Positions 23,361-37,037 of a stretch of DNA of 64,000 nucleotides are shown one piece after another (within the stretch, counting starts at the first letter, position 1; every line of letters begins with the position of its first letter). The notes under the pieces were generated by a model that was not told the origin of the DNA, did no database searches, and saw nothing but the letters and a program-made list of their open reading frames with translations. This stretch comes from Squalus acanthias (taxonomy: Eukaryota). The position numbers were made by a program, and so were the translations under genes. The DNA lies in NCBI GenBank assembly GCA_030390025.1, contig CM059432.1:2604001-2668000 (forward strand), given 5' to 3'.

Positions 23361-23793
23361 TGATGCGGAGATGCCGGTGTTGGACTGGGGTGGACAAATG
23401 TGAGAAGTCGCACAACACCAGGTTATAGTCCAACAGTTTTATTTGAAATCACAAGCTTTCGGAGCGGCTGCTCCTTCGTCAGGTGAAGTCACCTGATGAA
23501 GGAGCAGCCGCTCCGAAAGCTTGTGATTTCAAATAAAACTGTTGGACTATAACCTGGTGTTGTGCGACTTCTCATAAGAACATAAGAAATAGGAGCAGGA
23601 GTAGGCCAATTGGCCCCTCGAGCCTGCTCCGCCATTCAATAAGATCATGGCTGATCTGATCCTAACCGCCAATCTACTATCACAGAACCATCTCCTGAAC
23701 CTAACAGAATTGGACACACGAAATAGGAGCAGGATCAGGCTACACGGCCCCTGGGTCCGCTCCGCTACCCACAGGGCCATGACCGATCCGAAC
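23361..23793. mobile_element. Palindromic Penelope-derived element plus CR1-tail sequence, flanked by a 12-bp TSD
   Basis: 86-bp inverted arms at 23401-23486 and 23489-23574; CTATAATCTTCA at 23349-23360 and 23794-23805. Confidence 0.75.
23449..23526. ncRNA. Back-to-back minimal hammerhead motifs (minus 23449-23486; plus 23489-23526)
   Basis: UCAC-CUGAYGA-A-GGAGC(AGCC)GCUCC-GAAA-GCUU-GUGA on each strand, with palindromic AAGCTT in place of helix III. Confidence 0.75.
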
Positions 23794-24095
23794 CTATAAT
23801 CTTCAGCAGAGACCAGGAATTAAATCTGGAAACCTCTTGGTTCATTTGATTCGGTACCACGTTAGCATAAGAACATAAGAAATAGGAGCAGGAGTGGGCC
23901 ATACGGTCCTTTGAGCCTGCTCCACCACTCAGTGAGATCATGGAGTGCAGATATTATTGCTATGTATGTAAAAGCAGCAGTCATTTTTTGAGATAATTGT
24001 TGAGATGTGAAAATGTGATTTTTTTTTTAAAAAGAGCATCTGAACACTGCAAATGAGATAGCACGAGCATAACTGTACAACTTTTGTATCAACAG

Positions 24096-24215
24096 GCAAA
24101 TGCCATTGGTCGGAGTGCCAAGACGGTCAGAGAATTCCTTGAAAAGAACTACACTGATGAAGCCATTGCAACAGACAATGACACTATCAAGCTGGCAATT
24201 AAGGCTTTGCTGGAA
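24096..24215 (+). CDS. PSMA8: PSMA8 exon 5
   Basis: aacag|GCAAAT...CTGGAA|gtgagt; [40 protein letters not shown]; 120 nt. Confidence 0.94.
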
Positions 24216-24974
24216 GTGAGTGAAATTCATTATTGCCAAGATGCGCAGAGCCATCATTGGCATCCATGACCTCATTGTCCCCCCTCCCTATCTCTGTAAT
24301 CTCCTCCAGCCCTAGAATCCCCCTAGACTTCTGCGCTCCGCCTATTCTGGCCTTTTGAGCATCCCCGATTTTATTCGCTCCACCATTGGCGGCCGTGCCT
24401 TCAGCTGCCTGGGCCCGAAGCTCTGGAATTCCCTCCCGAAACCTTTCCGCCTCTCTACTTCTCTCTTTCCTCCTCTAAGACGCTCCTTAAAACCTCCCCC
24501 TCTGACCAAGCTTTTTGTCACCTGTCCTGATATCTCCTTACATGGCTCGGTGACTTTTTTTTTTGATAACACTCTTGTGAAGCACCTTGGGAAGTTTTAT
24601 TACGTTAAAGGAGCTATATAAATACAAGTTGTTGTTGTTGTATACTGGCGGAAATCTTAGAATCTCGTAATAAAAACTGCTGATGGCTTTTGCAGTCGCT
24701 ATCAACCAATGGCCCAAATCATGAAGTGACTGAATCGCGGACTGCGATTTTTCAAAAACGACTGGTAAAAATCTCGTAATTAAAATGAAATTTAACTTAT
24801 TTCCGTCATTGTAAGCCTGTGGCCCTGGTTGCAGTTCAACCGTCTGTCCCGTTATAATGCATGTGTGGAGGGTTAGTGCTGTGCGATCTTTGGTACTGCA
24901 ACATTGCCAGCCCTGCCAGATTACTGATTTTGTTGGTTTGTAGTGAGGTCACGTTTAAGAGATGGGGGGTCTCT

Positions 24975-25515
24975 TAACTAATGCTAGACTTGACTATTCC
25001 AATGCACTCCTGCCTGGCCTCCGATGTTCTACACTCCGTAAGCTTGAGGTCATCCAAAACTCGGCTGCCCGTGTCCTAACTCACACCAAGTCCCGTTCGC
25101 CCATCACCCCTGTGCTCGCTGACCTACATTGGCTTCCGGTTAAGCAACGCCTCGATTTCAAAATTCTCATCCTTGTTTTCAAATCCCTCCATAGCCTTGC
25201 CCTTCCCTATCTCTGTAATCTCCTCCAGCCCCACAACCCTCCGTGATCTCTGCGCTCTTCCAATTCTGGCCTCTTGAGCATCCCCGATTTCCATCGCTCC
25301 ACCATTGGCGGCCGTGCCTTCAGCTACCTGGGCCCTAAGCTCTGGAATTCCCTCCCTGAACCTCTCCGCCTCGCTTTCCTCCTTTAAGACTCTCCTTAAA
25401 ACCTACTTCTTGTCTGCCCTAATATCTCCTATGTGGCTCGGTGTCAAATTCTGTTTGATAACGCTCTTGTGAAGCGTCTTGGGATGTTTTACTACGGTAA
25501 AGGCGCTATAGTGTT
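24975..25515 (+). mobile_element. L2-clade LINE 3' end (further copies at about 4965-5350 -, 24270-24640 +, 44365-44930 +)
   Basis: RLDYSNALL...IQNSAARVLT...ITPVLADLHWLPVKQRLDFKIL, the typical L2 C-terminus. Confidence 0.85.
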
Positions 25516-26079
25516 GTGTGATGGCTACAGGTATGGAACACGCATTTTAAACTTTAAACAACATGGGCGGTTTGCTGAATTATATGTATTTTTTCCTGCT
25601 GATAGCTGTCCCGTCAGCCCTTCTCTGCCTAGTGAAGAGTTCTATGAATGTCCAAGCTTCCTGCTCAGGACCCTGTTTTCTCAGATTCTAGAACAGAGCG
25701 TGCAGACAGTAGAGTCACAGCTGCCCCACACATTCTCAGAAATGCTCTAGACATTCGGGCCATAATTGTTATAATCTGAAATGCACTGCCTGAAAGGGTG
25801 GACGAAGCAGATTCAATACTAACTTTCAAAAGGAGAATTGGATAATCTCCTCACATTCTGTCGTCTTTTGTACCTCCCCACCCCCTTTGCCCCATCATTG
25901 GTAGCCCTGCTTTTAGCCACCTAGGTCTGAGGCTCCAGAATTCTCTCTCTAAACTCCTCCACATCTCCGACTCCTCTTTAAGACCCTCGCTAATTCCCAC
26001 TTCTTTGACCACGCTTTTGGTCGTTTCACCAAATATCTCGTTCTTTAGCTTAGCCCCCATTTTTGATTACGCCTCAGCG

Positions 26080-26450
26080 CACCGTGGCTGCAGTGTGTAC
26101 CATCTACAAGATGCACTGCAGCAACTCGCAAAGGCTTCTTCGGCAGCACCTCCCAAACCCGCGACCTCTACCACCTAGAAGGACAAGGGCAGCAGGCGCA
26201 TGGGAACACCGCCACCTTCAAGTTCCCCTCCAAGTCACACACCATCCTGACTTGGAAAAATATCGGCAGTTCCCTCATCGTCGCTGGGTCACAATCCTGG
26301 AACTCCCTCCCTAACAGCACTGTGGGAGCACCTTCACCACACGGACTGCAGCGGTTCAAGAAGGCGGCTCACCACCACCTTCTCGAGGGCAACTAGGGAT
26401 GGGCAATAAATGCCGGCCTTGGCAGCGACGCCCAGATCCCATCAATGAAT
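26080..26450 (+). mobile_element. LINE 3' end of a further CR1/L2-superclade family (copies at about 34730-34885 and 52260-52580 on -)
   Basis: TVAAVCTIYKM...WNSLP-type terminus; its tail is shared with the SINE at 18893-19733. Confidence 0.65.
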
Positions 26451-35036: not shown

Positions 35037-35042
35037 AATAAA
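35037..35042 (+). terminator. Candidate proximal polyadenylation signal of PSMA8
   Basis: AATAAA about 560 nt after the stop codon. Confidence 0.4.
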
Positions 35043-35779
35043 GATGCAAACTTCTCTTCATTTTAGATCAAATGATATTCATCCTGGCCCCTGTTGTCGA
35101 ATGACAACTGTAAAGTTGAAACAATATCAGGCAATCCGCGACTCGGCGTGGAATTGACGGCTTGGAAAGTAAATCGGCGCTCTCCTGAAGGCTTCAGTGA
35201 GTAGCTGAACCGCCGCGAGCGGGAAGGCCTGCGCCACATCAGCTGAGCACAGCGGGGAAGTGATGGTGTCACTACATTCAGCCCATGGGTTAAAGGGGGG
35301 GGGGGAAATCCAACCAGTGTTCCCATTGCGGACTGTTAAAGCAGCAATCCCTGCTTGGAGGAGGTGCTGACGTGGGCAAGCGGGTGAGTCCTTGACGGAG
35401 CTCAACAGAGGTCCGCCCTTTGCAGTCAAACAGCCTGCCAACACGCGCCGTGAAGATTAAGGTATAAATAACGTTCCCTCGGACTAAGGAGGGAGTCTGG
35501 CGATGGTGGCACCGTAACCAAGTGAACACTTAACCCCCTTCAGGGACAGAGGGCGAGAAAAGTTGGCAAAATAAGATTCCACTTTCTTTTCTAGCCCCCT
35601 TTCCCTGCTGATTAAACGGCTAAATGCACTGTGAGGTGTCGCACTGACACAAAATGTTCACTAATATCCAGTCCCTGGTCTGTGTTGAGTTTGATTTTCC
35701 CAGTGTTGGAGGGCACTGCAGTTGTCTTTGGCTTGGGAAGTTGGGGGCGGGGGGTGGCAAAATGAGTCTGGGTTCCCAC

Positions 35780-35837
35780 CAATGTTCCCCCTCTTTTTTG
35801 GAGCTCTGGACCGCTGCCAGGCTTAAAGGGAACATTG
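35780..35837. mobile_element. 58-bp hAT-type MITE
   Basis: TIR CAATGTTCCC/GGGAACATTG; perfect TSD GTTCCCAC. Confidence 0.8.
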
Positions 35838-36299
35838 GTTCCCACTTCTGATCCCCATCTGGTGGTTGCTGCTGAAAATGGTGCGTGAGTGGACAAGATC
35901 AGACCGACGTCCACCCGTGGGCAAATGGACAACCAGCATTCACTGTCTTAAGGTCTGGAACAAGAACAGCTATTTGGGCAAGGGATGGAAGAGCCACCAG
36001 TGACCTTGAACTGCACTCTAGCCCAAGTCACTGCCTTCAGTTGAAGAAGCGAGAAAGTTAGGGATAAAATAATATTGTGGCGTCACAACTTTTTGAAGTG
36101 GTGTCAAGAGAAAGCTGTGTTTACAAAAAAATAGTATTTCATACCTTGCAATTAAGTTGTATGGTTTGATGTGTTTTGTAACTTTTTTTTCTAGTGTTAA
36201 TTTAGTTAATCTGCACATTTTCTGTGCACACATTTGGAGTTGTTGTTACAGTTGTGCATTGGTTTTAAAAAAAGATTGAATTCTGCTTGTAGGATGTCA

Positions 36300-36345
36300 A
36301 ATAAAAGACTCCAGGGCTGTATTTGAAATTTTTGTTTGTTTGTAC
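36300..36345 (+). terminator. Candidate distal polyadenylation signal of PSMA8
   Basis: AATAAA at 36300-36305 after a U-rich UTR-like stretch, followed by a GT-rich tract (tttgtttgtttgt). Confidence 0.5.
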
Positions 36346-36727
36346 TCATTAAACAATTATTTGTGCAGTCTGGCAAGTGAGGAGTTACAATTACAGATAA
36401 ACCAACAATGAGTTTTTAATATTCATTCTCTGGAACGCCATCAAGGCCAGCATTTATTGTCCATCCCTAATTGCCCTCAGCCACTGCCTTGAAGGCTGTG
36501 TGGCTTGCTGAGTTATTTCAGAGGACAGTTAAGCGTCAACCAGATTGCTGTGGGTCTCAAGTCACACATAGGCCAGACCGGGTTAGGACGGCAGATTTCC
36601 TTCCCGAAAGGACATTAGTGAACCAGATAGGTTTTTATGGTCACCATTACTGATACTTTTTATTCCAGATTTATTCAATTAACTGAATTCAGTGGTGGGA
36701 TTTGAACTCGTATCGCTACATCATTAG

Positions 36728-37037
36728 CCATGATGCGGAGATGCCGGTGTTGGACTGGGGTGGACAAATGTGGAACCAAAAAGAGCAACACCAGGTTATA
36801 GTCCAACAGCTTTATTTGAAATCACAAGCTTTCGGAGCGCTGCTCCTTCGTCAGGTGAAGTGAAGAGATGCATATAGGCACAGCATATATAGTCATCTGG
36901 CAGTGTTCTCTGACTATATATGCTGTGCTTATATGCATCTCTTCACTTCACCTGACGAAGGAGCAGCGCTCCGAAAGCTTGTGATTTCAAATAAAGCTGT
37001 TGGACTATAACCTGGTGTTGTGCGACTTCTCACATTT
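36728..37037. mobile_element. Palindromic Penelope-derived element (family 1) inserted in a SINE
   Basis: Inverted arms of about 110 bp; 12-bp TSD CTACATCATTAG at 36716-36727 and 37038-37049. Confidence 0.8.
36948..36984 (+). ncRNA. Minimal hammerhead motif (mirror copy on minus strand at 36822-36858)
   Basis: Same motif as 34054-34090, intact on both strands. Confidence 0.73.

What the first reader, a model, noticed from the sequence alone, without database searches (positions are those of the whole stretch)
23401..37037. Family of short palindromic retroelements carrying a hammerhead ribozyme on each strand
Seen: three non-coding elements (23361-23574, 33807-34180, 36728-37037) consist of inverted arms of about 86, 155 and 110 bp plus a shared 40-bp extension, and two have 12-bp TSDs. 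Each arm holds UCAC-CUGAYGA-A-GGAGC..GCUCC-GAAA-GCUU-GUGA (one helix I mismatch in the 33860 arm). Known: Penelope-like elements carry minimal type I hammerheads whose palindromic helix III region (here AAGCUU) allows cleavage as dimers, and PLEs often insert with inverted terminal repeats. Inference: a transcript from either strand contains one ribozyme next to its antisense, so a long dsRNA hairpin competes with the catalytic fold. Two copies lie in PSMA8 introns in sense orientation and could pair in cis to form a dimer; the third sits just past the distal polyA site. Arm-specific variants are mirrored within each copy (AGCC loop in both arms at 23.4 kb), consistent with one arm being copied from the other at insertion.
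Basis: partly seen in the sequence, partly recalled or inferred. Interest (0 to 1): 0.72.

Follow-up and report, generated by a model that had tools for sequence, protein, structure and literature searches.

The report
Shark Penelope fold-back stubs with hammerheads
The three small mirror-image elements with a hammerhead-ribozyme motif on each strand are real, but they are short leftover insertions of a known kind of jumping gene (a Penelope-like retrotransposon), and each ribozyme is predicted to be locked inactive by its own mirror copy, so they likely do nothing for the proteasome gene they sit in.

Summary
Observation largely confirmed. Three head-to-head palindromes (arms 86, 159 and 110 bp) carry a 38-42-nt tail at one end only and six minimal type I hammerhead motifs. 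The descriptor finds 8 motifs in the window against 0.02 per shuffle. Only one 12-bp TSD is flush; a second is displaced by a 219-nt nested piece and the third is a 9-bp remnant.

It runs into the last codons of an RT/GIY-YIG protein, 91% identical over 34 aa to a shark Penelope-like ORF with a Neptune-type zinc finger. Inverted truncated copy, one-sided tail, TSD and pLTR hammerhead are the published anatomy of these insertions. Centres differ in every copy, so the palindromes are likely rebuilt at each insertion, not spread as a unit.

On both strands the antisense arm comes first, and the catalytic fold costs 58-69 kcal/mol, so a cis dimer across 10.5 kb of PSMA8 pre-mRNA is very unlikely. 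In one copy each arm has sequence the other lacks, so simple arm copying is incomplete. The scan found this kind before, in this genome and others. Lead: the shortest copy breaks exactly at the predicted transcription start.

The parts
23349..23360 (.). E1 left TSD (12 bp)
   Evidence: exact repeat at 23794-23805; background 0.7%
23361..23400 (-). E1 PLE tail (40 nt, one end only)
   Evidence: matches E2 34144-34181 and E3 36728-36769
23401..23489 (-). E1 left arm; hammerhead C3 23482, predicted cleavage after 23453; its 5' end is the A of the predicted initiator
23489..23574 (+). E1 right arm; hammerhead C3 23493, predicted cleavage after 23522; helix I extended to 9 bp by the junction
23575..23793 (-). 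nested piece between E1 and its second TSD; its first ~85 nt are a dispersed repeat end (LINE-type 3' end, class recalled, not tested)
   Evidence: BLAST lists 13 other matches in the window
23794..23805 (.). E1 right TSD copy
33796..33807 (.). E2 left target site inside an AT-rich stretch of a host repeat
   Evidence: empty-site copies
33807..33984 (-). E2 left arm (tail-less) plus 19-nt central spacer, probably its continuation; hammerhead C3 33892 with helix I mismatch
   Evidence: the spacer aligns colinearly with E0 in context but is not significant alone (894 of 2000 shuffles)
33985..34143 (+). E2 right arm: TATA-like box 34021-34027, initiator-like 34049-34053, hammerhead C3 34058, predicted cleavage after 34086, AATAAA 34096
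34144..34181 (+). E2 tail (38 nt)
34182..34190 (.). 9-bp remnant of the E2 right TSD, then about 28 nt of host repeat missing
   Evidence: loose ends at 34190
36716..36727 (.). E3 left TSD (12 bp, exact)
36728..36895 (-). E3 tail, private 13-nt block (36773-36785) and left arm; hammerhead C3 36854
36896..37037 (+). E3 right arm (tail-less) with 15 extra central bases 36896-36910; hammerhead C3 36952; 5-nt microhomology at the junction (36890-36894)
37038..37049 (.). E3 right TSD
14032..14481 (-). E0: single-arm sister-subfamily copy with PLE ORF end (14472-14368, stop 14367-14365), 3' UTR, pLTR and hammerhead (C3 14115; CUC triplet; one compensatory helix I pair)
12304..34474 (+). host gene, proteasome alpha-7/alpha-8 (PSMA8-like), 7 coding exons

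Best explanation
The three palindromes are non-coding, 5'-truncated ends of an endonuclease-bearing Penelope-like retrotransposon, likely of the Neptune type and likely built anew at each insertion, and their hammerheads are predicted to be silent because each follows its own antisense copy.

Shown: arms, tails, target duplications, hammerhead motifs, and linkage of the sister copy E0 to an RT/GIY-YIG ORF end.

Inferred mechanism: the element's endonuclease cuts both strands of AT-rich DNA about 12 nt apart. The RT copies uncleaved element RNA starting at one of two internal start sites about 40 nt apart, stops early, and the cDNA folds back on a 1-5-nt microhomology and copies itself. The other end is joined through a second priming event at the other start site. 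This explains near-equal arms, a different centre in each copy, a tail at one end only, and the private block beside the E3 tail. The hammerhead is retained because it works in the tandem, direct-repeat transcript of the parent element (as a dimer, probably protein-assisted), not in these stubs. In PSMA8 pre-mRNA they would form inert intronic hairpins, at most substrates for dsRNA editing.
For: PLE link: the E0 ORF end matches 14 proteins, including P0002 (643 aa, RT; 91% over 34 aa) and P0005 (GIY-YIG above cut-off). E0 is 95% identical to E1 over 84 nt. P0002 has a CX4CxxC linker upstream of GIY-YIG, the Neptune/Nematis mark in PMC8557442 (passages).

Published anatomy: inverted 5'-truncated copy and a 30-40-bp tail at one end (PMC8557442); 8-10-bp TSDs, TATA plus TCACT initiator 20 bp apart, and self-priming proposed for head-to-head palindromes (PMC3846280, passages; the same TATA/initiator layout is in E2, E3 and E0); both strands cut and extended, two RT start sites bracketing the tail, uncleaved RNA as template (PMC11167929). 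7 of 7 arms keep the whole hammerhead. Arm-length differences within a copy are 3, 19 and 15 nt, against 86-159 between copies.

Silence: P(helix II) is at most 4.5e-19 and the penalty 58-69 kcal/mol in 6 of 6 strand-by-copy folds, also in growing + strand prefixes.

Selection on the parent: the seven hammerhead-internal substitution rows and two insertion rows shown all fall at N7, loop II or position 17.
Against: No full-length parent was seen: no genome is held and the collection scans were empty. E1-E3 carry no coding sequence, and E0 is a sister subfamily (77% over 57 nt upstream). The fold-back plus second-priming step rests on 3 copies; central deletions after insertion could give the same junctions. 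17 variant rows were not shown, including 3 G>A and 3 C>T places of run X1 that could be CpG decay in the core. The 3' flank 34087-34135 is about as invariant as the core (2 rows shown), so 'core better conserved than flank' is not established. Neptune assignment rests on one motif in a homologue, with no tree. Folding is nearest-neighbour only, without proteins or tertiary contacts.
Confidence: 0.82

Rival explanations
1. Same identity, different second-arm step: two independent cDNAs primed at the two nicks (twin-priming-like) from the same source RNA are joined at their truncated ends by microhomology, or a longer palindrome was trimmed at its centre after insertion. This rival concerns only the arm-building step.
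For: In E3 each arm has sequence the other lacks, and E2 probably does too. PAc extends both strands in vitro and is modelled as a dimer (PMC11167929). The 5-nt microhomology at the E3 centre fits end joining as well as fold-back.
Against: Independent truncation does not predict arms within 3-19 nt of each other in 3 of 3 copies, plus the second-family palindrome. In E1 and in the second-family copy the tailed arm is the longer one, as plain fold-back predicts.
Confidence: 0.35
2. A non-autonomous palindromic element (MITE-like or retrozyme-like) that is transcribed and reinserted as a unit by the PLE protein.
For: High abundance: 14,870 contigs of run X1 were laid on the 536-nt stretch, which also includes a host repeat. 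TSDs flank whole units, and cis-acting pLTR sequence sufficed for mobilisation in trans in PMC3846280. Earlier notes report several ~200-215-bp copies (unchecked).
Against: Centres and lengths differ in 3 of 3 copies, and subfamily variants differ between copies. There are no head-to-tail tandem units as retrozymes require (bioRxiv 2026.07.22.740005). A unit transcript would be a perfect hairpin, a poor RT template.
Confidence: 0.07
3. One reading: the intronic hammerheads escape their hairpins and dimerise in cis (E1 with E2), cleaving PSMA8 pre-mRNA or affecting its 3' end.
For: Cores are intact in 6 of 6 arms, with helix I weakened in one. The isolated E1 right arm folds helices I and II with probability near 1. 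Minimal hammerheads cleave weakly as dimers (PMC4209133).
Against: The antisense arm is transcribed first on either strand. The penalty is 58-69 kcal/mol, and the dimer is -20.4 against -79.3 and -73.9 kcal/mol. The copies are 10.5 kb apart in introns 4 and 6. Activity of such dimers is low, and the PAc ribozyme needed its protein. Intact cores are expected in young copies (arms differ by 1 of 86 and about 4%).
Confidence: 0.03

Closest known systems
Insertion units of canonical EN+ Penelope-like elements (Craig et al. 2021, PMC8557442, passages; Arkhipova et al. 2013, PMC3846280, passages)
   Same: Head-to-head inverted 5'-truncated copy, 30-40-bp tail at one end only, short TSD, hammerhead in the pLTR, TATA-like box about 20 nt before a TCACT initiator.
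   Different: Here both halves are truncated inside the pLTR/3' UTR, so the whole insertion is a 214-375-bp palindrome with no ORF; TSD 12 bp against 8-10 bp in the rotifer examples.
Minimal hammerheads of metazoan PLEs (Cervera and De la Pena 2014, PMC4209133, parts 1-2 of 4 read)
   Same: Type I, no helix III, palindromic 15.2-16.2, extra base between 9 and 10.1, G10.1-C11.1, 4-bp helix I. The paper already notes dual motifs 100-700 bp apart on opposite strands.
   Different: Helix II is 5 bp (7-8 bp in the schistosome families). Sharks are not named in the parts read; supplements were not read.
PAc, Poseidon-type PLE of Anolis carolinensis (Frangieh et al. 2024, PMC11167929, parts 1-2 of 4 read)
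   Same: Two end positions about 40 nt apart bracketing the tail, AT-rich targets, copies retaining an uncut hammerhead.
   Different: The shark homologue has the CX2-5CxxC linker of Neptune/Nematis. In most arms here there is no ATG at the start of stem II; an ATG lies at the outer end of the tail.
Non-LTR retrozymes (bioRxiv 10.64898/2026.07.22.740005, part 1 of 5 and passages)
   Same: Non-coding, PLE-pLTR-derived, type I hammerhead.
   Different: Retrozymes are head-to-tail tandem units; these are head-to-head single insertions.

Membership tests
EN+ Penelope-like element | ORF with RT and C-terminal GIY-YIG endonuclease | tested here: met
   For the sister copy E0 only: its 35-codon ORF end matches RT- and GIY-YIG-bearing proteins. 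E1-E3 are too truncated to hold coding sequence.
EN+ Penelope-like element | pLTR with hammerhead motif downstream of the ORF end | tested here: met
   E0: stop at 14367, hammerhead C3 at 14115 on the same strand
EN+ Penelope-like element | inverted 5'-truncated copy, head to head | tested here: met
   3 of 4 copies
EN+ Penelope-like element | 30-40-bp tail at one end only | tested here: met
   38-42 nt, one end only, in 3 of 3 palindromes; E0 has none
EN+ Penelope-like element | short target-site duplication | tested here: met
   E3 exact 12 bp; E1 12 bp displaced; E2 9-bp remnant
EN+ Penelope-like element | full-length partial-tandem parent in the genome | not testable with these tools
   no genome held; scans empty
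Neptune/Nematis clade of PLEs | CX2-5CxxC linker upstream of GIY-YIG | tested here: met
   present in homologues P0002 and P0007; not readable in the window itself
Neptune/Nematis clade of PLEs | RT phylogeny | not tested
   no reference set fetched
Minimal type I hammerhead (min-HHR) | CUGANGA and GAAA boxes, NUH triplet, base between 9 and 10.1, G10.1-C11.1, palindromic 15.2-16.2, helices I and II | tested here: met
   7 of 7 arms; helix I is only 2 bp plus a mismatch in E2 left and 3 bp in E0
Minimal type I hammerhead (min-HHR) | family variation confined to tolerated positions | tested here: inconclusive
   rows shown fall at N7, loop II and position 17, but 17 rows were hidden and the 3' flank is equally invariant
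Minimal type I hammerhead (min-HHR) | self-cleavage as a dimer | not testable with these tools
   needs an assay; no Rfam hammerhead model matched at gathering or at E up to 10
Non-LTR retrozyme | head-to-tail tandem units each with a hammerhead | tested here: not met
   all copies are head-to-head or single
MITE / unit-propagating palindromic element | fixed length, fixed interior and symmetric termini among copies | tested here: not met
   lengths 214, 375, 310; three different centres; tail on one side
microRNA precursor | Rfam family match at gathering score | tested here: not met
   0 matches; sub-threshold hits reflect the long hairpin

The most novel reading that the evidence does not exclude
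The shortest class (about 210 bp, E1 type) are run-off copies. The RT starts at the tail site on a transcript that begins at the pLTR initiator, falls off at the RNA 5' end seven bases before the hammerhead core, and folds back. Longer copies are ordinary truncations that gain the tail by a second priming event. If so, the very many mini-palindromes of shark genomes record the transcription start, both RT start sites and the second-strand step of Penelope transposition at single-base resolution, which makes an unsolved step testable from assemblies alone. Support: the E1 left arm ends exactly at the A of the initiator (equivalent to 34051); 3 of 8 joints listed leave from 34051-34052; the tailed arm is the longer one in both short palindromes and the shorter one in both long ones (2 and 2, one assignment weak). 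Against: few contigs, and no clean depth step at 34051 in run X1.
Probability: 0.3. Interest if true: 0.4.

Novelty: new member of a known kind. Interest (0 to 1): 0.16.

Why it matters
As a system it does not: hammerheads in PLE ends, opposite-strand pairs, inverted truncated copies and the one-sided tail are in print, and this scan has met the same thing repeatedly in this genome and others. The modest value is as fossil evidence on how PLEs make their second strand and inverted repeat, which the papers read leave open. A ribozyme switch in a proteasome gene would matter more, but the geometry argues strongly against it.

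Tried and rejected
Own-genome search: no genome held, so no copy count, arm-length distribution or parent element. 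Pattern scans found 0 matches in viral contigs and metagenome contigs. Protein-based locus searches found no confirmed relative. Rfam: 0 matches at gathering for the whole window; no hammerhead family among 19 matches at E up to 10 over 33700-37200. Pfam on the 35-aa ORF end gave only a sub-threshold unrelated hit; the identification rests on homologues.

Sequencing runs: no RNA holder listed on record. All four runs laid were contigs (X1, X7, X15, X19; 4 of 24 listed), so no start, end, strand or level could be read, and no pile-up of ends was listed. Summed depth over the arm is 1e4-1e5 times that of the exon in the two runs where both could be compared as DNA (X1, X15), which the tool says is not a copy number. 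In X7 (RNA is a guess) one 1104-nt contig joins the stretch at the last exon and bins 34327-34362 have no cover; this is not used as evidence. Three of 12 shown 'letters between' joints land at 34087-34089, the predicted cleavage site; too few to use. The distal polyA site was not tested because the laid stretch ended at 34520.

A source for the E3 private block was searched for in the window, but the probe covered the adjacent tail bases, not the block, so this is untested. The orientation of the E2 spacer alone was not significant.

Paper searches gave no paper on shark PLE mini-palindromes. The library lacks most subscription papers and Repbase/Dfam, so this is not proof of absence. Lunse et al. 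(PMC5785218) was not held and is known only as cited in PMC6765202. Rejected: MITE, retrozyme, microRNA, cis-dimer switch.

Full report
OBSERVATION. E1 (23361-23574) has 86-bp arms with one mismatch around a 2-nt centre and a 40-nt extension on the left. E2 (33807-34181) has 159-nt arms at 96%, a 19-nt spacer and a 38-nt extension on the right. E3 (36728-37037) has 110-bp arms, a 15-nt spacer and the extension on the left. A generic minimal-hammerhead descriptor finds 8 motifs in the window against a mean of 0.02 (max 1) in 100 dinucleotide shuffles: the six reported, one in a fourth copy E0 (C3 at 14115, minus strand) and one in a second family (29992, minus strand). Rfam has no match at gathering score and no hammerhead match at E up to 10.

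TARGET DUPLICATIONS. The TSD claim needs correcting. E3 has an exact flush 12-mer. E1 has an exact 12-mer whose partner lies 219 nt beyond the element, past a piece of another repeat (background 0.7% without tandem arrays, 3% with them); that duplication could also belong to the nested piece. E2 has 8 of 9 matching bases, then about 28 nt of the host repeat are missing, as four empty-site copies and the loose ends at 34190 show.

HOST GENE. It is a seven-exon proteasome alpha-7/alpha-8 gene on +. Exon 5 scores best against alpha-type 8 in the PDB and is identical to cartilaginous-fish proteins named type 7 or type 8. E0 is in intron 1, E1 in intron 4, E2 in intron 6 and E3 about 2.25 kb past the stop. 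The polyA site was not determined.

WHAT IT IS. It continues upstream through a 3' UTR into a 35-codon ORF end. That peptide finds 14 proteins among 15 candidates, among them P0002 (643 aa, Pfam RT; 91% over 34 aa) and P0005 (Pfam GIY-YIG above cut-off), several from sharks by their source names. P0002 has the DKG motif and a CX4CxxC linker before the GIY-YIG motif, the mark of Neptune and Nematis PLEs in PMC8557442 (passages); no tree was built. So the arm is the 3' end and pLTR of an endonuclease-bearing PLE. E0 is a sister subfamily (77% over 57 nt upstream of the hammerhead), so the link for E1-E3 is one step removed.

PUBLISHED ANATOMY. Every structural feature is in print: an inverted 5'-truncated copy and a 30-40-bp tail at one end (PMC8557442; PMC8969392 passages); TSDs of 8-10 bp, a TATA box 20 bp before a TCACT initiator, and head-to-head palindromes ascribed to self-priming (PMC3846280 passages); minimal hammerheads, including pairs 100-700 bp apart on opposite strands (PMC4209133, parts 1-2 of 4); cutting and extension of both strands, two RT start sites bracketing the tail, AT-rich targets, and a hammerhead that needs the protein and is dispensable for insertion (PMC11167929, parts 1-2 of 4). 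E2, E3 and E0 have the same TATA-like and initiator-like layout just 5' of the hammerhead. The Drosophila Penelope promoter is internal and TATA-less (PMC2377424 passages), so this promoter reading is a prediction. Supplements of these papers were not read and may list shark motifs.

FAMILY VARIATION. Contigs of four runs (4 of 24 listed, three organisms) were laid on the E2 right arm, tail and last exon. The arm is highly repeated in all four. Variants that distinguish the copies here are common family variants in run X1: the loop II extra C 6%, 34102 G>A 36%, 34036 C>T 46%, 34042 T>C 23%, 34045 T>C 30%. Both arms carry the same set in 3 of 3 copies, so both arms come from one template; this does not say that one was copied from the other. 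Inside the hammerhead, all seven substitution rows and both insertion rows shown lie at N7, loop II or position 17, and E0 has one compensatory helix I pair, which fits selection on source elements.

HOW THE PALINDROME IS MADE (inferred). The centre differs in every copy, so each palindrome was likely made at insertion. Arms within a copy differ by only 3, 19 and 15 nt, while copies range from 86 to 159, which favours fold-back of a truncated cDNA; the E3 junction has a 5-nt microhomology and E1 a 1-nt overlap. Plain fold-back predicts that the tailed arm is also the longer one at the centre. That holds for E1 and the second-family copy but not for E3, where the tail-less arm has the 15 extra bases and the tailed arm has a private 13-for-10-nt block (36773-36785), and probably not for E2 (spacer orientation is supported only in context). 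The simplest account is fold-back plus a second priming at the other start site that supplies the other end. Two independent cDNAs, or later trimming of the centre, remain possible. All seven arms keep an uncut hammerhead, as in PAc. The E1 left arm stops exactly at the A of the predicted initiator, and 3 of 8 joints listed leave from the same 1-2 positions. This is the lead given as the novel case; against it, run X1 shows no clean depth step there.

FUNCTION IN THE HOST GENE. Because the arrangement is head to head, the antisense arm precedes the ribozyme on either strand. In 6 of 6 folds the hammerhead conformation costs 58-69 kcal/mol and helix II has probability at most 4.5e-19; this holds in growing prefixes of the + strand transcript. 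The active E1:E2 dimer computes at -20.4 kcal/mol against -79.3 and -73.9 for each motif with its own antisense, and the copies are 10.5 kb apart. These are nearest-neighbour values without protein or tertiary contacts, but the margin is large. Without their antisense the arms fold variably (helix II probability 0.02-1.0). The hairpins could be edited or diced like any inverted repeat; not tested.

EARLIER NOTES. The scan has 31 matching notes in this genome and 2 shown from other genomes, and none by sequence or near this place. They reach the same class. One gave me the lead to PMC3846280, which I read in passages. One argues that arms are not made independently, which agrees with near-equal arms but not fully with E3. 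Two name the Poseidon-type PAc as closest, whereas the homologue here has a Neptune-type linker. They are unchecked and not counted as support.

VERDICT. A real, correctly recognised but ordinary feature: a new member of a known kind. Interest 0.16. The run-off and second-strand reading has probability about 0.3 and would deserve about 0.4.

Noticed in passing
window 29857-30100: Palindromic insertion of a second hammerhead-bearing family (tail on the left, intact motif on minus at 29992-29964, core A6 changed in the other arm) with an exact 14-bp TSD (29843-29856 / 30101-30114). It sits at the same AT-rich site of the same host repeat as E2, suggesting a shared target preference.
   Followed up: partly
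window 42311-42428 and 181-220: Further diverged pieces of that second family.
   Followed up: no
window 14032-14481: E0, a single-arm PLE 3' end with ORF end, no tail and no inverted arm, between GA-rich microsatellite tracts in intron 1; a 6-nt tandem duplication just 5' of the hammerhead.
   Followed up: yes
window 23575-23793: 219-nt piece between E1 and its second TSD copy: about 85 nt of a common repeat end plus a second, diverged look-alike with no other match in the window. The order of insertion is unresolved.
   Followed up: partly
window 36773-36785: Private 13-nt block replacing 10 nt next to the tail in the E3 left arm; origin unexplained.
   Followed up: partly
window 34096, 36990 and the equivalent place in E1: Each sense arm carries AATAAA ten bases after the cleavage site; the one at 34096 is a potential cryptic polyA signal in the last intron, though inside the hairpin.
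   Followed up: no
proteins P0001 and P0010: Shark proteins annotated as XRCC5 isoform X2 and FAM204A isoform X2 contain this PLE ORF end at 93-94% identity: exonised element or annotation artefact.
   Followed up: no
window 13510-13830: 321-base assembly gap in intron 1, within GA/GT microsatellite.
   Followed up: no
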